From Malacoraja senta (lineage: Eukaryota), in NCBI GenBank assembly GCA_038087875.1, contig CM075988.1, positions 13,642,001 to 13,706,000 on the forward strand: a DNA stretch of 64,000 nt. Direction: 5' to 3'. Position numbers and translations under genes: made by a program. This document shows positions 7,631-60,525 of the stretch, in pieces. The notes under the pieces were generated by a model. The model did no database searches, was not told where the DNA came from, and was given only the letters and a program-made list of their open reading frames with translations. Each line of letters begins with the position of its first letter. Position 1 is the stretch's first letter.

Positions 7631-9247
7631 CAGTGGCTTGCAAAAGTTTTCATACCCCTTGAACTTTTCCACATTTTGTCACATTACAACCACAAACGTA
7701 AATGTATTTTATTGGGATTTTATGTGATAGACCAACACAAAGTGGTGCATAATTGTGAAGTGGAAGGAAAATGATACATGGTTTTCAAATTTTTTTACAA
7801 ATAAAAAACTGAAAAGTGTCGCGTGCAAAAGTATTCAGCCCCCCTGAGTCAATACTTTATAGAACCACCTTTCGCTGCAATTACAGCTGCAAGTCTTTTG
7901 GGGTATGTCTCTACCAGCTTTGCACATCTAGAGACTGAAATTTTTGCCCATTCTTCTTTGCAAAATAGCTCAAGCTCAGTCAGATTGGATGGAGAGCGTC
8001 TGTGAACAGCAATTTTCAAGTCTTGCCAGAGATTCTCAATTAGATTTAGGTCTGGACTTTGACTGGGCCATTCTAACACATGAATATGCTTTGATCTAAA
8101 CCATTCCATTGTAGCTCTGGCTGTATGTTTAGGGTCGTTGTCCTGCTGGAAGGTGAACCTCCGCCCCAGTCTCAAGTCTTTTGCAGACTCTAACAGGTTT
8201 TCTTCCAAGATTGCCCTGTATTTGGCTCCATCCATCTTCCCATCAACTCTGACCAGCTTCCCTGTCCCTGCTGAAGAAAAGCATCCCCACAGCATGATGC
8301 TGCCACCACCATGTTTCAAAGTGGGGATGGTGTGTTCAGGGTGATGTGCAGTGTTAGGTTTCCGCCACACATAGCGTTTTGCATTTAGGCCAAAAACTTC
8401 AATTTTGGTCTCATCTGACCAGAGCACCTTCCTCCACATGTTTGCTGTGTCCCCCACATGGCTTGTGGCAAACTGCAAACGGGACTTCTTATGGCTTTTT
8501 TTCAACAATGACTTTCTTCTTGCCACTCTTCCATAAAGGCCCGATTTGTGGAGTGCACGACTAATAGTTGTCCTGTGGACAGATTCTCCCACCTGAGCTG
8601 TGGATCTCTGCAGCTCCTCCAGAGTTACCATGGGCCTCTTGGCTGCTTCTCTGATCAATGCTCTCCTTGCCCGACCTGTCAGTTTAGGTGGACGGCCATG
8701 TCTTGGTAGGTTTGCAGTTGTGCCATACTCTTTCCATTTTCGGATGATGGATTGAACAGTGCTCCGTGAGATGTTCAAAGCTTGGGATATTTTTTTATAA
8801 CCTAACCCTGCTTTAAACTTCTCCACAACTTTATCCCTGACCTGTCTGGTGTGTTCCTTGGGCTTCATGATGCTGTTTGTTCACTAATGTTCTCTAACAA
8901 ACCTCTGAGGCCTTCACAGAACAGCTGTATTTATACTGAGATTAGATTACACACAAGTGGACTCTATTTACTAATTAGGTGACATTTGAAGGCAATTGGT
9001 TGCACTGGATTATATTTAGGGGTATCAGAGTAAAGGGGGCTGAATACTTTTGCACGCGACACATTTCAGTTTTTTATTTGTAAAAAAATTTGAAAACCAT
9101 GTATCATTTTCCTTCCACTTCACAATTATGCACCACTTTGTGTTGGTCTATCATATAAAATCCCAATAAAATACATTTACGTTTGTGGTTGTAACGTGAC
9201 AAAATGTGGAAAAGTTCAAGGGGTATGAATACTTTTGCAAGCCACTG
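7631..9247 (-). mobile_element. Full-length Tc1 (IR/DR, Passport-like) DNA transposon, 1617 bp
   Basis: TA on both flanks (7629-7630, 9248-9249). About 213-bp TIRs (7631-7843, 9035-9247) with about 4 mismatches. Each TIR carries outer and inner tgcaaaagt(a/t)ttca direct repeats. Confidence 0.97.
7849..8868 (-). CDS. Tc1-family DD34E transposase, 339 aa, uninterrupted
   Basis: Paired-like HTH, GRPPK AT-hook, WSDETK, FQQDNDPKH and SPDLNLIE motifs; 34 residues between the second D and the E. Confidence 0.95.
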   Translation of the reverse strand: MKPKEHTRQVRDKVVEKFKAGLGYKKISQALNISRSTVQSIIRKWKEYGTTANLPRHGRPPKLTGRARRALIREAAKRPMVTLEELQRSTAQVGESVHRTTISRALHKSGLYGRVARRKSLLKKSHKKSRLQFATSHVGDTANMWRKVLWSDETKIEVFGLNAKRYVWRKPNTAHHPEHTIPTLKHGGGSIMLWGCFSSAGTGKLVRVDGKMDGAKYRAILEENLLESAKDLRLGRRFTFQQDNDPKHTARATMEWFRSKHIHVLEWPSQSPDLNLIENLWQDLKIAVHRRSPSNLTELELFCKEEWAKISVSRCAKLVETYPKRLAAVIAAKGGSIKY

Positions 9248-17436: not shown

Positions 17437-19584
17437 CAGGGCTGCCAACATTGGGTGAGAGTGAGAAATTGCGAGGGAGTGCAGCGACCGCGGGGGGGGG
17501 GAGGGGGGGGGGTATCCCCCCCACGGTAGGAAGCTTTTGCATTTTTCAGTTTGAAATTGTGGAATATGGTGCATACTTTTAACTTACACGTGATGCAACA
17601 TTTATGCTTCAAATTGGATTTGGTGTGAATAAGGTCAACAGGTGCAGCACATGAATGACCTTAGTATATTCATGTATGGAAATCAGATTATAATTCATAT
17701 ATAGAGCTGTTATGCATATATAGAGAAACAAAAACATAGAAACAAGGCAAGAGGAGTCAGACTTCCATCACTGATCTGCACAAATAAATCAATTAATCTT
17801 ACCCTTTGACTATAGAAACAAAATTAAAATAATGCCACATATTCAACCGTATATGGTTCAATGAAATTAAGATATATATGTAAAACATATATATGGAAAC
17901 AGGCCCTTCGGCCCACCAAGTCGACACCGACCGCAATCTATCATACACCAGTTGTATCCTACATGCCAGGGACAATTTACAGAAGCCAATTAACCTACAA
18001 ACCTGCACTTCTTTCAGATGTGGGAGAAACTGGAATTTCCACAGAAAACCATGTGGTCATAAGGAGAATGTACAAATACTGTACAGACAGCACCTGTAGT
18101 CAGGATCAAATCTGGGTCTGTGGTGCTGCAAGGCAGCAACTCTACCGATGCGCCACCGTGCCACCCCATTAATTTTTTTTTCTTTAAAAAATTTTATGGT
18201 GACACGTCAATAAAGATGAACACATGATTCTGATTACTTCCTTTAGTTGGATAACACACCTCTCCAGTCATTGTGTTTTATTGCTGGTTTTCAACCTCTT
18301 CAGTCTGAAGGTCTCGACCTGAAACATCACCTATTCTTTCTCTCCAGAGATGCTGCCTGTCCTGCTGAGTTATTCCAGCTTTTAGTGTCTATCTTCAGTT
18401 TAAACCACCATCTGCAATTCCTTCTTACACTCTTTATTAAGCGAAACGGGTCCTATTCTCATAATATTATTCACCTCAACTAAGTTTTTTCTTCACTTCC
18501 GTTGCTGCAGAGAATACAATTCCAGTTTTCAAATCTTTCTTCAAAGTGAAACAAAAATTCCAGCCCAGCCAATATGTTCATAAATCACCTCTGGATCCTC
18601 TCCAGAGCAATTGCACCCTTTCTACAGTGTGTCATAGTCTTACAGCATGCAAACAGGCCCTTCATCCCAACTTGTCCATGCAAATCAAGATGCCCCATCT
18701 AAACTAGTCCCATTTATCCGCTTTTGGCCCATATCCCTTTAAAGCTTGTGTGTGTCAGTGTGTGTGTAAGGGTGTGTGTTAGGTTGTGTGTGAAAGCGTG
18801 TGTTAGTGAAGCGGCGACAACACCCGGAGTGAGTGGAGACTTGGCGATGTCCGGGGAACATTTCCCTCTCCCTCCCCCCGGGAATGCGGGCCGGCCTAGG
18901 TGCTCTGTGTCCAGCTGGGCTCCGGGGGAGGTGAGGGTCAGTGACCCGGGGGTCCGGGGGAGGTGAGGGTCACTGACCCGGGGGTCGGGCATCGGACCAG
19001 AGCTATAGCCCAAGATTCATCCCCGCGGCTCCAGAGGAGGCACTGACGCTCCCATTCAACCGGTCCGCTCCAAGCTCCAGGCCGGGGTTTAAACTCCATG
19101 CGGTGTGGACAGAGCGGCCGGAGGTGAGGGTGGGAGGTGTGAGCAGTGCCTCAGGGGTCGTTGCTGGGACCACCGCCGTGTCTCACCTATCACACCATCT
19201 GCACAGGAATGTGAATGCGGGTGAGGCAGCATCCATAGAGCGGTGGACAAAAATGCTGGAGAAATGCTTGAGTCTGAAGAAGGGTCTAACTCAGACATAG
19301 TTGCTGCCTCACCCGCTGAGTTTCTCCCGCATTTTAGTCTACATTGCCAATTTAAATAGTGCACGATGGGCTGAAGCCAATTAAATTGCACGTTCTTTAC
19401 AGGAAACCCGCCGACAAAAACTATTCTCATTGGTGAGTGTGGAGGAGTGTGACTTTATTTATTTATTCATACATTTTTTAAAATATTTTTTTGAGCGTGA
19501 GAACTTCAGTCATCAGCGTGAGAGCGTGAGAATTTCCTCAAATGCGTTAGTCTCACGCTCAATGCGTGAGAGTTGGCAGCCCTG
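17437..19584. mobile_element. Non-autonomous TIR DNA transposon (hAT-like termini) carrying nested repeats
   Basis: Perfect 13-bp TIR cagggctgccaac/gttggcagccctg; tataaac on both flanks; subterminal cgtgaga repeats. Confidence 0.8.
17890..18165 (-). mobile_element. HE1-like V-SINE
   Basis: Reverse complement of the SINE family at 12801. Confidence 0.85.
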
Positions 19585-27479: not shown

Positions 27480-29290
27480 TTGGAGATGCTGGTGGAGAAA
27501 TGGCAAATTTGGTTTAAATCCGGACAAGTGTATTTTGCACTTTGGGAGGTCAAATTAAGCAAATTTTTTATAGTAAACGGCAGCACAGTTAGGAACATTG
27601 ATGTACAAAAAGGTCTTTGGGTCCATGTCCATGGCTCTCTGGAAATGGCAACTCAGTAGATATGATGGTAAAGAAAGTGAATAGCATGCTTTCCCAGTCG
27701 GTATGATGAGTACATAAATCTCCTTTCCAACCGATCCCACTTCATCTCTCTCCATAACTACACCTCTGCCACAGCCACTGTCACTCAAGGCGTTCCCCAA
27801 GGCTCCGTTCTTGGTCCCCTCCTCTTCATCATCTACATCCTCCCCCTTGGTCATATACTCCGTCACTTCAACCTTGACTTCCACTGCTATGCTGATGACA
27901 CCCAGATCTATCTCAGCACCAAGTCCCCCCACCACCCCCCTCTCTCCCATATCAACTCCTGCCTATCAGCCATCAAATCTTGGATGCAACTCAACTTCCT
28001 TAAATTAAACAGTAGCAAAACAGAATTTCTCCTCATTGGCTCCAAATCAACACTCACTAAAATTAACAACCCCACTCTCACTATTGACGGCACCACTGTC
28101 TCCCCATCTCCTCAGGCACGCAACCTTGGCGTGATCTTTGACTCAACCCTCTCCCTTGAACCTCACATCCGCCATGTTGTCAAAACATCATTTTTTCACC
28201 TCCGCAACATTGCCAAAATCAGATCCTCTCTCACACCCCCCGCTGCTGAAAGACTCATCCATGCATTCATCTCCTCCCGTCTGGACTACTGTAACTCTCT
28301 TCTCTTTGGCATCAATTCCAGCAACATCAACCAACTCCAACTGGTCCAGAATGCAGCCACCCGACTCATTACCCACACCAAATCCTGGCACCACATCACC
28401 CCAGTTCTCAAAGAACTCCACTGGCTTCCCATTTCCCACCGGATCATCTACAAAATCCTGGTCCTCACCTACAAAGCCCTCAACCACTTGGCCCCCCCTT
28501 ATCTCACTGACCTCCTCTCCCCCTATCAACCCTCACGGTCCCTCAGATCCACATCAGCTGGTCTCCTCTCCACTCCGAAATCAAACCTCTGCACTTTTGG
28601 AGGCAGAGCCTTCTCCAGGGCAGCTCCCAGGCTCTGGAATTCCCTCCCACAACTGATCCGAAATTCTGAGTCCCTCACCATCTTCCAGTCCCGCCTCAAG
28701 GCCCATCTCTTCACTTCTGCGTACCCTTAGTCCCATGTTCCCCTCCCCTTTGCATCTCTGTCTTACTGCTCTATTTAGTTTTGTTTATTCTTGACTCTCA
28801 ATTGTAAAGCGACTTTGAGTCCTGAAAAACGCTATATAAATTAAATGTATTATTATTATTATTATTATAAATCAGGACATTTTGCTGGAGCTGTATAAAA
28901 CTTTGGATAGGATACATGTAGAATATTGTGTGCAGTTCTGGTTGCAGGATTACAGGAAGGATGTGGAAGCTTTGGAGATGGTGCAGAGAAGGTTCACAAG
29001 GATGTTGCTTGGATTAGAGAATATTAGCTACGAGGCGAGTTTTCTCTGGTAAACTGGGGAGAAGCAATAGATGTTTCTAAAAGTATTCAAGAGGCATGGA
29101 CAGTGTGGTTCATCAGGGTTTTATCCAGGGTGGAAATGTCAAAAGTAAAACAAGGACATGGCTTCAGGGTGAGAAGAAAGAAGTTTAAAGTGCAAGATAA
29201 GCTTTTTACACAGAGAGTAGTGGGCGCTGGAACACCTTGTCAGGAGGGGTAGGGAGTGGTGGGTGGTGGAAGCAGACGGTGAAGTTTAAT
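27480..29290 (+). mobile_element. Old CR1 fragment interrupted by an L2 copy
   Basis: CR1 RT-like sequence at 27480-27720 resumes at 28867 (EY.NQDILLELYKTL). Confidence 0.75.
27721..28866 (+). mobile_element. Young 5'-truncated L2 LINE with open RT C-terminal frame
   Basis: GVPQGSVLGPLLF..HCYADDTQ is in frame with the 27984-28730 ORF (LKLNSSKTEF, SRLDYCNSLL, LHWLP). L2 tail with (TAT)n; 7-bp TSD ataaatc (27714-27720, 28867-28873). Confidence 0.93.
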
Positions 29291-40101: not shown

Positions 40102-40197
40102 TTAAACTTGCAGCTGGATGGATCATACACATTTGTTGCAAGTGTTGTAGCCTGCTCTGTAAATATGTAAATTATGCTCAAAGGGGACAGAGTGTCT

Positions 40198-41705
40198 GGA
40201 AGGAATAGTGCCGGAGGATTGGCGTACTGCGCATGTTGTTCCGTTGTTTAAAAAGGGTTCGAAGAGTAAACCTAGCAATTATAGACCTGTTAGTTTGACG
40301 TCAGTGGTGGGCAAATTAATGGAAAGGATACTTAAAGATAATATATATAAGCATCTGGATAAGCAGGGTCTGATTAGGAACAGTCAACATGGATTTGTGC
40401 CTGGAAGGTCATGCTTGACTAATCTTCTTGAATTTTTCGAAGAGGTTACTAGGGAAATTGATGAGGGTAAAGCAGTGGATGTTGTCTATATGGACTTCAG
40501 TAAGGCCTTTGACAAGGTTCCTCATGGAAGGTTGGTTAAGAAGATTCAATTGTTGGGTATTAATGGTGGAGTAGCAAGATGGATTCAACAGTGGCTGAAT
40601 GGGAGATGCCAGAGAGTAATGGTGGATGGCTGTTTGTCAGGTTGGAGGCCGATGACTAGTGGGGTGCGTCAGGGGTCTGTGTTGGGTCCACTGTTGTTTG
40701 TCATGTACATCAATGATCTGGATGAAGGTGTGGAAAATTGGATTAGTAAGTATGCAGATGATACTAAGATAGGTGGTGTTGTGGATAATGAAGTAGATTT
40801 TCAAAGACTACAGAGAGATTTAGGCCATTTGGAAGAGTGGGCTGAAAGATGGCAGATGGAGTTTAATGCTGACAAATGTGAGGTGCTACATCTCGGCAGG
40901 ACAAATCAAAATTGGACGTACACGGTAAATGGTAGCGAATTGAGGAATGCAGTTGAACAGAGGGATCTAGGAATAACTGTGCATAGTTCCCTGAAGGGGG
41001 AATCTCATGTAGATAGGGTGGTAAAGAAAGCTTTTGGTGTGCTGGCCTTTATAAATCAGAGCATTGAATATAGAAGTTGGGATGTAATGTTAAAATTGTA
41101 CAAGGCATTGGTGAGGCCAATTCTGGAGTATGGAGTACAATTTTGGTCGCCTAATTATAGGAAGGATGTCAACAAAATAGAGAGAGTACAGAGGAGATTT
41201 ACTAGAATGTTGCCTGGGTTTCAGCAACTAAGTTACAGAGAAAGGTTGAACAAGTTAGGTCTTTATTCTTTGGAGCGCAGAAGGTTAAGAGGGGACTTGA
41301 TAGAGGTCTTTAAAATTATGAGCGGGTTAGACAGAGTGGACGTGGATAAGCTTTTCCCATTGAGAGTAGGGAAGATTCAAACAAGGGGACATGACTTGAG
41401 AATTAAGGGACAGAAGTTTAGGGGGAACATTAGGGGGAACTTCTTTACTCAGAGAGTGGTAGCTGTGTGGAATCAGCTTCCAGTGGAAGTGGTGGAGGCA
41501 GGTTCGATGTTATCCTTTAAAAATAGATTGGATGGGTATATGGACGGGAAAGGAATGGAGGGTTATGGTCCGAGTGCAGGTAGATGGGACTAGGGGGAAG
41601 TATTTATTTTTAATTTAAAATTAAAAAAAAAAAATGTTTTTAAATGTTCGGCACGGACTTGAAGGGCCGAGATGGCCTGTTTCCGTGCTGTTATTGTTAT
41701 ATGGT
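40198..41705 (+). mobile_element. Young 5'-truncated CR1 (HER1-like) LINE with open RT ORF (40208-41593, 461 aa)
   Basis: NYRPVSLTS, QHGF..GRSCLTNL, DFSKAFDKVPH, QGSVLGP, YADDTK, TRGH motifs; CR1 tail. Confidence 0.95.
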
Positions 41706-41935
41706 TATATTATTTTGTTTTAGAGACTTCTCAAGTGTGTATGGAGTGTAGGCATGTTATGTAAAATTTGCCCCCGATGGTTTATTCATAAGTCAATTGG
41801 GTTGTCCCTATGGAGATGTGATTTTCACAGCACCACGAAGTGATGACTGACACATGAGAGAGATATAATTTTATTGCCACTTGTCTTCTGGCTTTTGTCT
41901 GTAAATTCATCATTATTTATTTATTGAAAGCATAC

Positions 41936-42310
41936 TTACTTACTTACTTACTGCCTATTATGCCTCCTGGCATGTAGGGCAGCAACAGAGGTCCTCCACT
42001 CCTGTCTGTTCTGAGCTAGATTCTGGACACTACCCCGGGTCAGGTCCATTGTCGATAGCCCTGGAAGTCCACGCCCAGTAGTGTTGATTCCTTCAGTTGC
42101 TGTTTTGTTTTACGAGACAGAGTTGTTAGCCATGTGCTCAACCCCCATCCTGGAGAACCAGTGGATCGCTCTTCGTCTCGCCTCTACCCTTTGACCTGTC
42201 CAGCATGGGAGACCCTAACAGGAGATGAATCTCCCATTGGCATAGCTCTAGGGGCCACTGAGACACACAAGCTCCCCGACCACGACAAGGTTGCAATCCA
42301 ACGGGGAGAA
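41936..42310 (-). mobile_element. Short bipartite RTE-type non-autonomous retroelement with (AAGT)n tail
   Basis: TSD tgaaagcatac (41925-41935, 42311-42321); tetranucleotide tail; 5' HDV-like fold. Confidence 0.75.
42163..42308 (-). ncRNA. Predicted HDV-like ribozyme with extended P4
   Basis: P1 CUCCCCG/CGGGGAG, P2 GGAUUGC/GCGAUCC, P3 ACC/GGU, L3 UUGUCGU, and CGAA before the P2 3' strand. Confidence 0.55.
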
Positions 42311-42394
42311 TGAAAGCATACCGTTATTATTAATTCTAAAGTGTCAACCATTATTTTGTTCTTGTTTCTTCGAAAAATCCAAGCGATCCTAGGA

Positions 42395-42590
42395 CGGCAG
42401 CGGTAGAGTTGGTGCTTTACAGCACCAGAGACCCAGGTTCGATCCTGACTCTGGGTGCTGTCCGTATGGAGTTTGCACTTTTGTTGGATAGTAGTGTGCA
42501 GGATCGAATGAATTTACAGGTGATTGATTGTTGGTCGGTATGGATTTGATGGACCGAAGGGCCTGTTTCTGCGATGTATCTCTAAAACCT
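42395..42590 (+). mobile_element. Internally deleted HE1-like SINE
   Basis: Head and CR1-type tail are present; the core is shortened. Confidence 0.75.
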
Positions 42591-42626
42591 AAAAAAAGGA
42601 AAGTGCCCTATTAGTTACAACAAATG

Positions 42627-43680
42627 TAGGTATGTTACAATACTTACCTTCAGCGGCGCTGCAGTTCTGCCACTGGCCGTGTGTGCGACTTTCGCGCCTT
42701 TGAGGGGGGGGGGGGGGCGGGGCGGGATTAAAATGCCGTTTTCTCCTGCCTGTCCGAGATATATTTTCTCGGCCTGCCAGCTGCTGCAGAATAATCGTTC
42801 TGACTTTCGTTCTCGGAAGGTTTTAAAGAAAATCGCGGGACAATTTAATCGCTGGAGTAAAATAAAAAAGCGTCTTCTAACACCGTCAACGCCGACAACG
42901 GGACAGATCTCGCGTAGGGGACAAAACATAATGTAAGTCGTGTATTTTACATATAAACTTGCTTCTTAGGATGACTTTAATCAACATTTCCTTAGCGAAA
43001 ATGTGATTTTGCCCCCATACGAACCGGCAGTGTTTTTCCTGCCGATATGGGGTTTAAATTCACTGCAACCGCAACGTTCCAATCGATCGCATTCCACAAA
43101 AACCCAATCGCAAGATGATTAAAATGGCCATTAATTTACGGGAATTAAACATTAAATTCCTTCCATTTGGCCTATAAATTCATGACAAAGAGATTTAAAA
43201 ATCATGTTATATTGTGAATTCTTGTGTGAATGTTATATAGACACTTAGGCTATTTAAAAATGTTAACCTTTTCTTAAGAAATGGATAGATGTTTAGATCT
43301 AGTAATTTAATTTTGTAATTAGCTACAATTAGGTAACTAACTAATTATATGCTTTAATTTCAGGTCATCCAAGTAAGATTGTTTCATATTTGTTTCAGAA
43401 TGCTTCAATCTATAATAACTGAACATTTCTTTCAGTTCTCTTAATTTTTAAGAAAGTTATGGGCTTTTGACTGTCCTCGATCACAGCTTTTGTGTTAAGT
43501 CAATGGAAAAGCAATAGGGAACAAGATGCTAATTTCTGAGTATGAAAACGGCCATAACTTTTTTAATACTGAAGATATGAAAGTGAATTAGGTGTCAAAT
43601 TAAACTTTTTTTTATGCTTTATCTGATGGGATAAATTGCAGACTTGATTTTTGAAATCTCAAAATTCTGTAACATTGCTA
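42627..43680. mobile_element. Non-autonomous TIR DNA transposon (hAT-like TAG termini), 1054 bp
   Basis: TIR taggtatgttaca/tgtaacattgcta with 2 mismatches; flanking repeat acaaatg (42620-42626, 43681-43687); CpG-rich left half. Confidence 0.8.
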
Positions 43681-43831
43681 ACAAATGATAAATTGTTGTA
43701 ATTGCCTGATGTCCTCATTAATGTGCAGTGACGCCATGCAAACTCCATGCAAACCTATGTGAGAGGTCGTTTGGATTTGGCTTATTCTAAAATTCTCCAT
43801 GGATGTTCAAATGATAGTTGAAAATATTGTT

Positions 43832-43969
43832 CTTCTCCTTGCATATGGCGTGCACAGGCTAAAGTTGTAGGACAACTTGTTCTATTTGATCTTATTTGAT
43901 TGTGCACGCCAGGTTGATTGCATTCATTGAAACAGGGCGGACCACGTGAAGGTTGCAATCTTCCACCCC
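43832..43969 (-). mobile_element. 138-bp Vingi/Ingi-like short retroelement, copy 1
   Basis: 11-bp TSD aaaatattgtt/aagatattgtt; (GAA)-like tail after gcacgccatatgc; paralog at 55760-55896. Confidence 0.8.
43916..43969 (-). ncRNA. Predicted minimal HDV/CPEB3-like ribozyme (catalytic C position reads U in this copy)
   Basis: GGGGUGG AA GAUUGCA ACC UUCACGU GGU CCGCCCU GU UUCAA UGAA UGCAAUC; all of P1, P2 and P3 pair. Confidence 0.75.
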
Positions 43970-44365
43970 AAGATATTGTTAATGATCTTAGTCCCTGTGA
44001 TTAGGCAATATTCAAAGAAGGAATATATTTGGATTACAGGTAACAAATTTTACCTGTGATATTCTCACGTAGTCAAAATAATTTAAAATTATTTGTATTG
44101 ACACTGTAGTTTGAAGTATATGTACTGCACAAAACTTTACGCCAATACGTGATATTCAATATCACGTGGAATATATTGGGACCCACTCAACTTAAAATAA
44201 TGAACATTCAAAATTTAAATTAGTTGGCTCAAAATATTTGCTCCAGAGATGATCTTCTTGATGTTGTAATATACCTGTATTTCCCGGCAATGAAGATGCT
44301 ATTTTTTACCCAAAAATAAGGCACAAAAATTGGAGGCCGTAGATTAGGTTGTAAGCCAAGAAACG

Positions 44366-55179: not shown

Positions 55180-56195
55180 TCATCTTCTTCATTGTGATGA
55201 AATGCTACCAGAGGTTGGTTATGACGCATATCAACTCCTGCCTCGGTAATGAACTGGACCCACTTCAATTCACCTTCTGCCGCAACAGATTGATAGAAGA
55301 TGTGACCACGCTGGCTTTCCAACCTGCGCTGGACTACATGGACGACAGGAACACGTAGGACAGGCTGTTGTTCACGGATTACAGCTAGTCGTTCAACACC
55401 GTTATCCCTTCCAAACGCATTGTCAAACTTAGGGAACTGGGTCTCTGCTCGTCCCTATGCATCCAGATCCGTGACTTCCTCATTGGCAGACCTCAATCAG
55501 TATGGATTGGTAACACCATCTCCAGCTCGATCACCCTCAACACAGGGGTAGCACAGGGCTGTGTACTCAGTCTACGACTCTAAACCCTCCTTCCCATGGG
55601 TACACACTCCAACCCCATCTTTAAATTCACTCTCAATTCTACTATAATTGGACAAATTACAGGTAAACATATGTCAGAGTATAGGAAGGAGATTAATAAT
55701 CTGGTTGAGTGGTGTCAGTACAATAATCTTGAACTCACCATTAAAACGATCAAGGAGCTTCTTCTTCTTGCGTATGGCGTGCACAGCCTAACGTTGTAAG
55801 ACAACTTGTTCTGTTTGATCTTCTGTTTGTGCACGCCAGGTTGATAGCATTTGTTGAAACACGGTGGACCACGTGAAGGTTCCAATCTCCCACCCCATCA
55901 AGGAGCTGATTGTTGACTTCAGGAAAGCTGCGGGACCATGCACCTATCTTCATTGACGGGACAGCGGTGGAGAGAGTCAACAGCTTGAAGTTCTTGGATG
56001 TACACATCTCTCATGATCTGTCTTGGGCCCAGCTTATTGATACAATCACAAAGAAAACTCACCAATGCCTTAACTTCCTCAGACGTTTGAGGAGATTTGA
56101 CATGTTGCTGATTACGCCATCAAACTTCTACAAGTGTAAGGTGGAGACCATACTGACTGGTTGCTTCACAGCCTGGTTCGGAATTTCGAACGCTT
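55180..56195 (+). mobile_element. Degenerate Rex1/Babar LINE RT fragment
   Basis: MKCYQRLV...LDPLQF and VERVNSLKFLDVHISHDLSW...LRRLRRF. Confidence 0.85.
55760..55896 (-). mobile_element. Vingi/Ingi-like short retroelement, copy 2, with HDV-like 5' fold (55843-55896)
   Basis: TSD atcaaggagct (55749-55759, 55897-55907); ends in gcacgccatacgc(aag)n. Confidence 0.8.
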
Positions 56196-58470: not shown

Positions 58471-59149
58471 TGTACTTGAGTGGCAACTGTGCAATGTTAT
58501 TGTTGCACAAGAGTTAGTTTGAGCTGAAAAAGTAAGCAGGCTAGAAGTTCTTCAATAAGTGTTTCCACTGCTTGGGAACAAGATTCTCTCCCCCAACACA
58601 CACCACTCAAACTGATTTGTGTTCATGCCCTTATGTGACCTTGCATTAAGGTAGCAGGGTGATGATCAGGATGGGGAGGGTGGGTGAGTGATGGAAAGTT
58701 TGGTGTCGGAATGGGGAATAGGAGGGCTGGGAGAAGGTCAACAGGAAATATGGAAGGGAAATGATCAAAGTGGAAAGTTGCTTGAGGTATTAGTCTGGAT
58801 GCTGGATGGAGCGTTGGAGGGTACTGAGGTGATGATTGGAAAGCCTGAAGAAAGGTTTAGGAAAGAGGATGATAAAGATCGAGACACCAGAAGCTGCAGA
58901 TGTTGGAATCTTGAGCAAAATGTAAGCTACCAGAGGAACTCAGTGGGTCATGCAGTCTCAGAGTTTGGGAGGGTGAAACTAGAGGTATGAGAAGGTACAG
59001 AACAAAGCAGAGTCTGCATCAATGATTCGGGTAAGGGGAGGCCACAATGGTCTATTGTCGAGGGGTCAAGATGATAACGAAGGGATACAAATGGTGAAAT
59101 ATGATGGGGGAGGGACAGAGAGAGAGGGAATGCAAGGTTTAAAAAAAAA

Positions 59150-60525
59150 ATTATGGGATTGGGGGTAATATATTAGCATGGGTAGAGGATTGGCTAACAA
59201 ATAGGAAGCAGAGAGTGGGGATAAATGGTTCATACTCGGGATGGCAACCGGTAACTAGCGGGGTTCTGCAAGGGTCGGTGCTGGGACCCCAGTTGTTCAC
59301 AATTTATATAAATGATTTGGAGGAGGGAACCAAGTGTAATATATCAAAATTTGCGGACGATACAAAAATGGGAGGAAAAGTAGGGGATGAGGAGGATAGG
59401 AAGAGTCTGCAAAAGGATATAGATAAGCTAGGTGAGTGGGCAACAACTTGGCAGATGAAATTTAATACTAATAAATGTGAAGTCATTCACTTTGGGAAAA
59501 AAAATGATAGGGCAAGTTATTTTCTAAATGAGGTGGAGCTGCGTTGTAATGCAACGCAAAGGGATCTAGGGGTAGTAGTACATGAATCACTAAAAGTTAG
59601 TATGCAGGTGCAGCAAGCAATCAGGAAGGCCAATGGAGTTTTGGCCTTTATTGCTAGGGGGATTGAGTATAAAAACACGGAGGTCTTGCTGCAGCTGTAC
59701 ACTGTATTAGTGAGACCACATTTGGAATACTGTGTACAGTTCTGGGGTCCATACTTAAGAAAGGATGTACTGGCCCTGGAGGCAGTGCAGCGAAGGTTTA
59801 CAAGATTAATTCCTGCAATGAGGGGATTGACATATGAGGAAAGGTTAAGTAGGCTGGAACTCTACTCTTTGGAGTTTAGAAGAATGAGAGGCGATCTCAT
59901 TGAAACATATAAGATCGTGAGGGGCCTTGATCGGGTGGATGCACCGAGGATGTTCCCAATGATCGGGGAAACTAGAACTAGGGGACATAGTTGTAGAATA
60001 AGGGGGGGCTCTTTTAAAACTGAGATGAGGAAGAACTTCTTCACCCAGAGGGTGGTTAATTTATGGAATTCACTGCCCCAGGGAGCATTGGAAGCAGAAA
60101 CATTAAATATATTTAAGTCTAAAATAGATGGTTTTTTAGCTGCCAAGGGGATAAGGGGCTACGGGGAGAAGGCAGGGATATGGACCTAGGTATGGTTAGT
60201 ATAGTAAGACCTGAGTGATCTCCTGGACAAGTGTCGATCGCCTGGATTGGGGTCGGAGAGGAATTTCCCGGATTTTTTTCCCGAATTGGACCTGGGTTTT
60301 TATCCGTTTTTTTGCCTCCCCCAGGAGATCACGCGGTTCTTGGGGTGGAGAGGGGTGATAGCGGTATAAAGGGGAGGGTAGTGTCTTGTGTTCTGTGTCT
60401 TGTGTCTACTGTTTGTGGGTAAGGGTGTCTGTTTAGTGTTCAGCCATGAGCGAATGGCGGTGCGGGCTCGATGGGCCTGGTGGTCTACTCTCGCACCTAC
60501 TTTCTATGTTTCTATGTTTCTATGT
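59150..60525 (+). mobile_element. Young 5'-truncated CR1 with open ORF (59215-60189, 324 aa) and (TTTCTATG)n tail, inserted into an antisense Penelope remnant
   Basis: QGSVLGP, FADDTK, RPHLEYCVQFW, TRGH. Penelope sequence continues on both sides (~58880-59140, ~60527-60770). Confidence 0.93.

What the first reader, a model, noticed from the sequence alone, without database searches (positions are those of the whole stretch)
43832..43969. 138-nt ribozyme-headed mobile RNA: minimal HDV/CPEB3-like fold, stem-loop and (GAA)n tail
Seen (minus strand): the first base after the TSD begins P1 GGGGUGG/CCGCCCU, with the G-U wobble at the predicted cleavage site. P2 is a perfect GAUUGCA/UGCAAUC, P3 is ACC/GGU, L3 is UUCACGU (as I recall, the same as the CPEB3 ribozyme L3), and P4 is reduced to about 5 nt. 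The rest is an 11-bp stem UGGCGUGCACA/UGUGCACGCCA enclosing hairpin AAGUUGU-CCU-ACAACUU. No Pol III boxes are evident. J4/2 reads UGAA here and CAAA in copy 2, which implies an ancestral CGAA decayed by CpG deamination. Knowledge: Ingi-clade LINEs use 5' HDV-like ribozymes, and Vingi elements end in (GAA)n. Inference: a promoter-less SINE released from host transcripts by a ~54-nt self-cleaving RNA and copied by a Vingi-like LINE.
Basis: partly seen in the sequence, partly recalled or inferred. Interest (0 to 1): 0.78.

Follow-up and report, generated by a model that had tools for sequence, protein, structure and literature searches.

The report
Ribozyme-headed short retroposon family
A 138-base mobile element present in thousands of copies in this animal genome starts with what looks like a very small self-cutting RNA of the hepatitis-delta/CPEB3 type, which would let each copy cut itself out of any host transcript it sits in.

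Summary
Window 43832-43969 (-) is one copy of a young, abundant retroposon, family A. It has at least 1693 first-look candidates, target-site duplications, a fixed 5' end at the first G, and a variable (GAA)n tail.

Its first 54 nt fit the HDV-like nested double pseudoknot. The family consensus keeps the J4/2 cytosine (CGAA). The window copy has U there and is probably dead.

A second family, B (178 nt), has the same architecture with different P1, P2 and P3 sequences that still pair: 8 pairs changed on both sides. B's head scores 27-28 bits against Rfam's mammalian CPEB3 ribozyme model, below the gathering score of 35.

A third family, C, lies in the window. It is probably RTE-derived. It also starts exactly at the foot of a homologous hairpin.

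Self-cleavage is not shown. PolyA RNA reads from one related organism give no pile of 5' ends at G1, and many reads run across the site. I found no LINE that shares either end, so the Vingi-like partner is unsupported.

The kind of element is known (NARTc, R2 SIDEs). What is new is a P4-less, CPEB3-like head on stand-alone chordate short retroposons.

The parts
43832..43969 (-). Family A retroposon copy, 138 nt: ribozyme-like head, 3' stem-loop domain and short (GAA)-type tail
   Evidence: It is 95-100% identical to the 40 scored genomic copies, and 34 of those 40 align over 1-138.
43916..43969 (-). HDV/CPEB3-like head (nt 1-54). P1 43963-43969 pairs with 43934-43940. P2 43954-43960 pairs with 43916-43922. 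P3 43951-43953 pairs with 43941-43943. L3 is 43944-43950. The mini-P4 linker is 43927-43933.
   Evidence: Sequence. The nested minimum-energy fold equals P1+P3. Descriptor. Pair counts across families A and B.
43923..43926 (-). J4/2. It reads UGAA here; the family consensus is CGAA. Base 43926 is the position of the presumed catalytic C, lost in this copy by a CpG-type C-to-T change.
   Evidence: 54 C, 15 T, 1 A of 70 copies; the other letter (C on the element strand) makes up 82-97% of depth at 43926 in 4 runs.
43846..43911 (-). 3' domain: an 11-bp closing stem (43901-43911 with 43846-43856) enclosing a 7-bp hairpin (43862-43878). This is the presumed recognition module for the reverse transcriptase.
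   Evidence: Fold. Family B has the same layout, and the 3' strand of its hairpin shares the short word ACAACTT. The role is inferred.
43832..43838 (-). Tail, GGAGAAG here. In other copies it is (GAA)n with 2 to more than 10 units.
43970..43980 (-). Upstream target-site duplication: 8 nt exact, or 11 nt with one mismatch
43821..43831 (-). Downstream target-site duplication
55761..55896 (-). Second, older family A copy, 87.7% identical. J4/2 reads CAAA, and several helix positions are mutated. An 11-nt duplication flanks it at 55897-55907 and 55749-55759.
41933..42308 (-). Family C copy. Its first base is the foot of a 7-bp hairpin whose inside shares 19 of 21 nt with family A nt 10-30. It has an (AGTA)n tail and a duplication TATGCTTTCA.
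   Evidence: There are 526 genomic matches to its first 43 nt at up to 3 mismatches. All 12 fetched copies start at the same base.

Best explanation
The element is a non-autonomous, promoter-less retroposon whose first 52-54 nt form a minimal HDV/CPEB3-type self-cleaving ribozyme.

Proposed cycle:
1. A copy lying in sense orientation inside any transcription unit is transcribed as part of the host RNA (inferred).
2. The head folds into the nested double pseudoknot and cuts the chain just 5' of G1, so the released RNA starts with the whole ribozyme (inferred from the fold and from the 5' ends of copies).
3. A LINE reverse transcriptase, not identified here, binds the 3' stem-loop domain and primes within the (GAA)n tail on a nicked target (inferred).
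4. It copies the RNA to its 5' end. Every new copy therefore carries a complete ribozyme, starts at G1 next to the target-site duplication, and can repeat the cycle wherever it is transcribed.

Shown: the family, the duplications, the fixed 5' end, the conserved C, and the compensatory changes. Not shown: the cleavage itself and the partner enzyme. The window copy has U at the catalytic position and is most likely an inactive descendant.
For: 1. It is a real family. One search gave 1693 first-look candidates; 40 were scored, all 95-100% identical, and 34 of the 40 were full length. The 28-29-nt core motif with the C fixed has 5538 exact matches in the genome, against 0 for the reversed control.

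2. The 5' end is fixed at the predicted cleavage site.
- 36 of 69 rows (L001 repeats the window copy) have an exact duplication of 6 nt or more ending on the base before G1. 23 are offset by 1-7 nt and 10 have none.
- Among loci chosen without regard to the 5' end, 24 of 30 (one search set) and 17 of 18 (one search set) align from nt 1-2.
- In contigs of three coded organisms the flanks become unlike at 43969-43971.
- Position 1 is itself the most variable base of the head (57 G of 70). That is expected at the end of a template.

3. The consensus keeps J4/2 C-N-A-A. C44 is found in 54 of 70 copies and in 82-97% of depth in 4 runs.

4. Family B has the same order of parts and also starts at its P1 in 11 of 11 copies (two of them are one duplicated locus). 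It differs from A at 8 base pairs on both sides (1 in P1, 5 in P2, 2 in P3), and none is broken. In the tool count, 95.9% of cells pair against 36-50% when partners are slid, and the covariation score is 0.455 against at most 0.096.

5. Variants that reach 10% within the head either keep pairing (positions 31 and 32) or lie in unpaired parts (positions 8, 42, 44, 45).

6. B's head matches Rfam RF00622 (CPEB3 ribozyme) at 27-28 bits, with E from 3e-4 to 6e-4 over 6.9 kb and 1e-5 on the 248-nt locus alone, in 3 of 3 copies.

7. The kind is established. HDV-like ribozymes process the 5' ends of R2, RTE and L1Tc/ingi elements and of their non-autonomous derivatives (passages of PMC6765202 and PMC5786205; abstract listings).
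Against: 1. No cleavage data exist.

2. In polyA RNA raw reads of coded organism E (run X22), the tool listed no place where many molecules begin or end. 229 reads (99, 99 and 31) run across G1 into unlike flanks, at a local depth of about 285. Caveats: both orientations and many mutated copies are pooled, and polyA selection would lose a free 138-nt RNA.

3. Family A has no Rfam hit even at E up to 10. B stays below the gathering score.

4. P4 is reduced to a 6-nt linker and P1.1 to one possible pair (C22-G37). Activity of such a core is assumed, not known.

5. The covariation rests on two lineages only. The alignment used was fitted to P2 and P3; P1 and P1.1 were not in that model.

6. No partner LINE was found.
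Confidence: 0.7

Rival explanations
1. The head is a conserved structured 5' module that does not cleave. It could be an internal promoter or start-site element (the trypanosomatid Pr77 is both a promoter and a ribozyme). It could be a protective 5' fold, or a signal used by the reverse transcriptase or in second-strand synthesis. The fixed 5' end would then mark a transcription start or a template end set by other means.
For: - No cleavage signature in polyA RNA reads.
- P4 is nearly absent, and family A has no Rfam hit.
- There is no run of four T inside A or B that would stop RNA polymerase III (sequences).
- Pr77 is a precedent for a dual role (abstract of PMC3383444 in the listing).
Against: - No tRNA-like gene by ARAGORN and no small-RNA family by Rfam.
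- A plain promoter or hairpin does not explain why the long-range P2 pairing is kept through 5 double changes between A and B.
- It also does not explain why the J4/2 C-N-A-A and the CPEB3-type L3 are kept.
Confidence: 0.2
2. It is an internal-deletion derivative of a living LINE, of the SIDE/NARTc type, whether Vingi-like as the reader proposed or RTE-like. The head would then simply be that LINE's own 5' ribozyme, and the 3' domain its 3' UTR.
For: - Only RTE, Ingi, Vingi and R2 are reported to give such bipartite elements (PMC5786205 passages).
- Family C in the window shares 19 of 21 nt with A nt 10-30. Its longer versions carry what I take, from memory, to be the end of an RTE-type open reading frame.
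- An A-derived covariance model finds the C heads at E about 0.01.
Against: - A head followed by non-A sequence: 88 hits, nearly all indel variants, with no recurring continuation.
- A 3' end or 3' stem preceded by non-A sequence: 18 and 135 hits, all variants or truncations.
- B 3' end preceded by non-B sequence: 3 hits.
- The shared core with another P3 or another P4: 75 hits, all mutated A or B, and 3 hits.
- C has a different P1, L3, P4 and tail, (AGTA)n.
- These searches see only near-identical ends. A parent diverged by more than about 10% would be missed.
Confidence: 0.15
3. The fit to the ribozyme fold is a coincidence in an ordinary short retroposon.
For: The relaxed descriptor hits 2-12 places in each shuffled window. 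The window copy lacks the C.
Against: - The strict descriptor gave 0 hits in 20 shuffles.
- A second family with other helix sequences has the same fold at the same place, its 5' end.
- An independent Rfam CPEB3 match for B.
Confidence: 0.03

Closest known systems
HDV-like ribozymes at the 5' ends of non-LTR retrotransposons (R2, RTE, L1Tc/ingi, Baggins)
   Same: A double-pseudoknot ribozyme occupies the first nucleotides of the element. The cut falls at the element's own 5' edge, so the element needs no promoter of its own and is freed from co-transcripts (PMC6765202 and PMC5786205 passages).
   Different: Those are heads of autonomous LINEs, usually with a real P4 and often longer (about 184 nt in R2, per PMC6765202). 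Here the head is 52-54 nt with P4 reduced to a linker, it sits on 138- and 178-nt elements, and no LINE with the same head was found in the genome.
Ribozyme-headed non-autonomous derivatives: NARTc/RIME/SIDER of trypanosomatids and R2 SIDEs of Drosophila
   Same: Short ORF-less elements that keep the parent's 5' ribozyme and a 3' recognition part (abstract listings of PMC3383444, PMC3414825 and PMC4035085).
   Different: Those share both ends with a known LINE in the same genome; that test failed here. The host here is a chordate. Pr77 is 77 nt and doubles as a promoter.
Mammalian CPEB3 ribozyme (Rfam RF00622)
   Same: Same L3 and same G1-U wobble in both families, and the same J4/2 (CGAA) in family A. 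In the alignment, 30 of the 38 columns from P1 to just past P1' are identical between B and the Rfam consensus. That includes a run of 22 columns, from the last P2 residue to just past P1', with a single one-base gap.
   Different: CPEB3 is a single-copy intronic sequence described in mammals (PMC10919898 and PMC8256844 passages) with an 18-nt P4. Here it is a multicopy retroposon head with a 5-nt stand-in for P4 and other P2 sequences. B reads CCAA in J4/2. Scores are below Rfam's gathering score for B, and A has no hit.
Minimal HDV-like ribozymes (human-microbiome examples; theta ribozymes of gut phages)
   Same: The HDV-type core with P4 cut down or absent is a described natural variant (abstract of 10.1101/2023.06.13.544163 in the listing; title of Riccitelli et al. 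2014 in the reference list seen).
   Different: Those are bacterial or phage sequences, not heads of animal retroposons. I did not read their structures, so the degree of likeness is not tested.
Sm-alpha hammerhead SINEs and twister-variant heads of Perere-3/RTE elements in Schistosoma
   Same: Short retroposons or LINEs that use a small self-cleaving RNA to define an RNA end (PMC6765202 passages; abstract of PMC8501958; PMC7761336 passage).
   Different: A different ribozyme class. [quoted passage not shown]

Membership tests
HDV-like self-cleaving ribozymes | Nested double pseudoknot in the order P1, P2, P3, L3, P3', P1', (P1.1), P4, J4/2, P2' | tested here: met
   All helices are present in A and B. 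95.9% of cells pair, and 8 pairs change on both sides.
HDV-like self-cleaving ribozymes | Cleavage site at the 5' foot of P1, with nothing upstream required. For retroelements this means the element's first base is the first base of P1. | tested here: met
   Only the coincidence of ends was tested. Duplications abut G1. B starts at its P1 in 11 of 11 copies and C in 12 of 12.
HDV-like self-cleaving ribozymes | Catalytic cytosine in J4/2 | tested here: met
   Met for the families. Not met for the window copy (U) or copy 2 (C kept, but J4/2 reads CAAA and the helices are mutated).
HDV-like self-cleaving ribozymes | P1.1 pairing between L3 and J1/4 | tested here: inconclusive
   One possible pair, C22-G37, is invariant in A and B. 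In family C the two letters are swapped, G23-C38, but the rest of the C fold is unclear.
HDV-like self-cleaving ribozymes | P4 helix | tested here: not met
   Only 6 nt lie between G37 and C44, at most one U-A pair closing a 4-nt loop. That P4 is dispensable is my recollection. Minimal forms are named in the literature.
HDV-like self-cleaving ribozymes | Self-scission giving a 5'-OH product | not testable with these tools
   The only proxy, polyA RNA reads, showed no pile of starts at G1.
Rfam RF00622 CPEB3_ribozyme | Score at or above the curated gathering score of 35 bits | tested here: not met
   A: no match at E up to 10. B: 27.0-27.9 bits in 3 of 3 copies.
Rfam RF00094 and other Rfam HDV-type families | Any match | tested here: not met
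   None at gathering score in the window. None at E up to 10 around the element or in L011, L040, L080, L092.
Classical SINE | Head derived from tRNA, 5S, 7SL or snRNA with an internal RNA polymerase III promoter | tested here: not met
   ARAGORN found 0 genes in 41800-44200. Rfam found no small-RNA family.
Bipartite non-autonomous LINE (SIDE/NARTc type) | An autonomous LINE in the same genome shares the 5' end and the 3' end | tested here: not met
   Searches found only A or B variants. These searches are limited to near-identical ends.
Vingi-mobilised element | Tail and 3' end shared with a Vingi LINE | not testable with these tools
   No Vingi sequence was at hand. One search found 0 papers on Vingi tails, and the defining paper is not held.

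The most novel reading that the evidence does not exclude
The mammalian CPEB3 ribozyme may be a domesticated head of this kind of retroposon. Family B's head is nearly letter-identical to the CPEB3 core through P3, L3, P3' and P1', although family A shows that those helix sequences are free to differ. That argues for common descent rather than convergence. If so, ribozyme-headed short retroposons of this lineage were present in early vertebrates, and one insertion in a CPEB3 intron was kept in mammals. A and B would also be the smallest natural HDV-type ribozymes of vertebrates, at 52-54 nt with no P4.
Probability: 0.3. Interest if true: 0.8.

Novelty: new variant of a known kind. Interest (0 to 1): 0.65.

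Why it matters
1. It shows how a short element with no promoter and no small-RNA head can stay mobile: the copy carries its own 5'-end maker.
2. It offers two natural, very small HDV-type cores, with built-in compensatory evidence, for testing how little of the fold is needed.
3. The near-identity of one head with the CPEB3 ribozyme core makes the unexplained origin of that mammalian ribozyme, and by extension of HDV-type ribozymes in vertebrates, directly testable by comparative genomics.
4. Thousands of potentially self-cutting sequences inside introns and UTRs could affect host RNA processing.

I could not check Dfam or Repbase, so the family may already be catalogued as a repeat without the ribozyme being noted.

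Tried and rejected
- Rfam at gathering score found nothing in the window. At E up to 10 it found nothing relevant for family A and nothing at all for the C locus (L080).
- LINE partner hunt. Patterns with forbidden letters beside the A or B ends and for the shared core with another P3 or P4 returned only A or B variants, truncations and segmental duplicates. The Pfam RVT_1 search gave 159,856 candidates; the 150 scored were uninformative. A scan of about 300 kb of held sequence for other (GAA)n-ended repeats found none that recur. A sensitive blastn of the A and B 3' domains against held sequence found nothing new except a second B copy.
- The locus fetched (L079) proved to be a 5'-truncated old A copy, not a new family.
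- Covariance model R1 (P1+P3) misaligned B's 3' end. I replaced it with R2.
- A weak R2 hit at window 19127-19196 (E 0.16) was dropped as spurious before the count.
- Family C as an HDV-type fold: P1, P3 and L3 fit, but P2 needs a 4-nt bulge and P4 is weak. I left it as a lead.
- Papers not held: PMC3002237 and PMC3308841.
- Taxon: the Atlas gave only Chordata for a LINE RT in the window. My impression that the flanking repeats are of cartilaginous-fish type is recalled and untested.

Full report
**What is at the coordinates**

On the minus strand the window reads a 138-nt unit from 43969 down to 43832.
- P1: nt 1-7 with 30-36, 7 bp, with a G1-U36 wobble.
- P2: nt 10-16 with 48-54, 7 perfect bp.
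- P3: nt 17-19 with 27-29.
- L3: 7 nt, UUCACGU.
- A 7-nt stretch stands in place of J1/4 plus P4.
- J4/2 reads UGAA.
- Then comes an 11-bp stem enclosing a 7-bp hairpin, and a short GA-rich tail.

The nested minimum-energy fold of nt 1-54 is exactly P1 plus P3 (-12.6 kcal/mol for this copy, -12.4 for the consensus). P2 on its own is a 7-bp duplex of -7.4 kcal/mol.

The flanking duplication is 8 nt exact, or 11 nt with one mismatch. Only in the second reading does it touch G1. A second copy lies at 55761-55896 (-), 87.7% identical. It has CAAA at J4/2 and an 11-nt duplication touching G1.

The window's own assembly is 1.94 Gb. A search with the element gave 1693 first-look candidates. The 40 that were scored are 95-100% identical, and 34 of the 40 align over 1-138.

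A consensus of 70 copies is 138 nt. The copies came from the best hits, the variant-selected loci, and the window.
- Position 44 is C in 54 copies, T in 15 and A in 1. The ancestral J4/2 is therefore CGAA, and the window's U is a CpG-type decay.
- Common polymorphisms sit at nt 8 (J1/2), 42 (P4 stand-in), 59 and 127.

In 36 of 69 rows, an exact duplication of 6 nt or more ends on the base just before G1. In 23 rows the best match is offset by 1-7 nt, and in 10 none was found (L001 repeats the window copy).

Loci picked without regard to the 5' end mostly start at nt 1-2: 24 of 30 in the set and 17 of 18 in the set. Tails vary from two to more than ten GAA units.

A 28-29-nt core motif with the C fixed has 5538 exact matches in the genome and none for the reversed control.

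**A sister family gives compensatory evidence**

A simple HDV-type descriptor of my own hit nothing in 20 shuffled windows in its strict form. Run over the held loci, it found a second element beside an A copy in locus L040.

This family B is 178 nt. It has 2047 first-look candidates, and the 40 scored are 96-100% identical. All 11 copies examined start at the first G of their P1, next to a duplication, and end in (GAA)n (two of the 11 are one duplicated locus).

B has the same order of parts as A. It shares the same L3, the same G after P1', the same short P4 stand-in and a C-N-A-A J4/2 (CCAA). Its P1, P2 and P3 have other sequences.
- Between the two consensus heads, 8 pairs differ on both sides (1 in P1, 5 in P2, 2 in P3) and none is broken.
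- On a model-made alignment of 14 heads (11 distinct), 95.9% of cells pair, against 36-50% when the partners are slid by 1-3 columns. The covariation score is 0.455 against at most 0.096.

Caveats:
- There are only two lineages.
- That alignment was fitted to P2 and P3. P1 and P1.1 were not part of the model.

A has inserted into B (L011) and B into A (L101), so both were active at the same time.

Within A, a subfamily has U5-A32 instead of U5-G32 and CUAA instead of CGAA. As I recall, CGAA and CUAA are also the J4/2 sequences of the genomic and antigenomic HDV ribozymes. That is a recollection, not a test.

**Likeness to CPEB3**

Rfam finds nothing for A. All three B heads searched match the mammalian CPEB3 ribozyme model at 27.0-27.9 bits. 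E is 3e-4 to 6e-4 in 6.9 kb, and 1e-5 on the 248-nt locus alone. The gathering score is 35.

In the printed alignment, B equals the Rfam consensus in 30 of the 38 columns from P1 to just past P1'. That includes a run of 22 columns, from the last P2 residue to just past P1', with a single one-base gap. The model's 18-nt P4 is answered by 5 nt.

By Rfam's own threshold neither A nor B is a member of that family.

**A third family, C, in the window**

The 21-nt similarity to A nt 10-30 at 42278-42298 lies in another retroposon at about 41933-42308 (-), with an (AGTA)n tail and a duplication.
- Its first 43 nt have 526 genomic matches at up to 3 mismatches, and the first 100 listed are exact.
- All 12 fetched copies start at the same base with unrelated upstream sequence.
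- That base is the foot of a 7-bp helix (all letters different from A's P1 except one pair). The helix encloses the same P3 and an L3 differing at 2 of 7 places.
- The L3 and J1/4 letters that could form P1.1 are swapped (G-C for C-G).
- I could not draw a convincing P2 or P4, and Rfam has no match.
- Longer versions (L080, L081) carry what I take, from memory, to be the end of an RTE-type open reading frame.
- RTE elements are reported to have 5' HDV-like or truncated twister ribozymes (PMC5786205 and PMC7761336 passages).

C is a lead to the ancestry of the A head. It is not proof of a partner.

**Partner LINE**

I searched the genome for an A or B end joined to foreign sequence. I also searched for the shared core with another P3 or another P4. 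All returned only A or B variants, truncations or segmental duplicates. These searches would miss a parent that differs by more than about one base in ten. The RVT_1 search was swamped by 159,856 candidates.

The Vingi idea stays untested. The library holds no paper linking Vingi, tail and GAA, and the Vingi paper itself is not held.

**Other genomes and RNA**

Words of the stretch occur in runs of six coded organisms. I laid four runs from three of them; one may be the window's own source.
- In all four, the element is covered at very high depth while most of the flanks are not.
- Flanks become unlike at 43969-43971 and at 43830-43832.
- Position 44 is C in 82% (RNA reads), 92%, 97% and 96% of depth.
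- Within the head, the only variants reaching 10% are at nt 8, 31, 32, 42, 44 and 45. Those at 31 and 32 keep pairing, and the rest are unpaired positions.

Against cleavage: in 1.1 billion letters of polyA RNA raw reads, 544 reads were laid. No place passed the tool's test for many molecules beginning or ending. 229 reads cross G1 into unlike sequence, at a local depth of about 285. This pools both orientations and all copies, living or dead, and polyA selection would lose a free short RNA. It is therefore weak evidence, but it is the only in vivo evidence and it is negative.

**What it is and how it most likely works**

A and B are non-autonomous retroposons with no small-RNA head. The best reading is that the head is a minimal HDV/CPEB3-type ribozyme that frees the RNA from host co-transcripts at G1. 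A LINE enzyme then primes in the (GAA)n tail after binding the 3' stem-loop domain and copies the RNA to G1.

Position 1 is the most variable base of the head (13 of 70 copies are not G). That fits a template end.

The kind of element is known: Pr77-headed NARTc, RIME and SIDER; R2 SIDEs; and ribozyme heads of RTE, R2 and ingi LINEs (listings and passages). The departures are:
- a chordate host (weak);
- a core with P4 cut to a linker;
- no LINE with the same head;
- near-identity of one head to the CPEB3 core.

Full-text searches found no paper describing such a vertebrate family: 11 papers; 13 papers; 4 papers; 19 papers. I read only listings and the passages cited. Dfam and Repbase could not be consulted.

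**Verdict**

- Observation: confirmed.
- Interpretation: partly supported. The ribozyme-headed retroposon reading is supported. Cleavage is unshown. The Vingi partner is unsupported.
- The window copy itself is a dead member.
- Novelty: a new variant of a known kind.

Noticed in passing
L040:1687-1864 (-); L011:1447-1767 (-); L092-L101: Family B is a 178-nt retroposon with a CPEB3-like 52-nt head and a (GAA)n tail. It has 2047 first-look candidates. A copies are inserted in B copies and the reverse.
   Followed up: yes
window 41933-42308 (-); L080-L091: Family C always starts at the foot of a hairpin homologous to the A head. It has an (AGTA)n tail. Longer versions carry what looks like the end of an RTE-type reading frame (recalled). 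Whether its head is an HDV-type or another ribozyme is open.
   Followed up: partly
G000 C8:36531395, C18:2905262, C3876:17589: A few A-related copies have the reverse complement of the 3' end joined to the forward left arm of the 3' stem, as if the template had snapped back at the perfect 11-bp stem.
   Followed up: no
L043:1512-1568 (-): This is a solo head: family A nt 1-57 followed by about 20 unrelated bases, the whole flanked by a duplication. It looks like an aberrant insertion that carries only the ribozyme part.
   Followed up: no
window 7633-9245: A Tc1/Sleeping-Beauty-like DNA transposon with an uninterrupted 343-codon transposase frame (7849-8880, -) and about 68-nt terminal inverted repeats (7633-7700 and 9178-9245). 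It looks recently active.
   Followed up: partly
window 27681-28730, 40163-41593, 59143-60189 (+): Three LINE reverse-transcriptase fragments, each in a stretch of strong positive GC skew. The one ending near 41700 has a tail unlike (GAA)n.
   Followed up: partly
family B consensus, nt 2-148 (frame 1): One reading frame stays open from the start of B for 49 codons and stops just before the 3' stem. This may be chance (about 1 in 10), or a remnant of a parent's coding ends.
   Followed up: no
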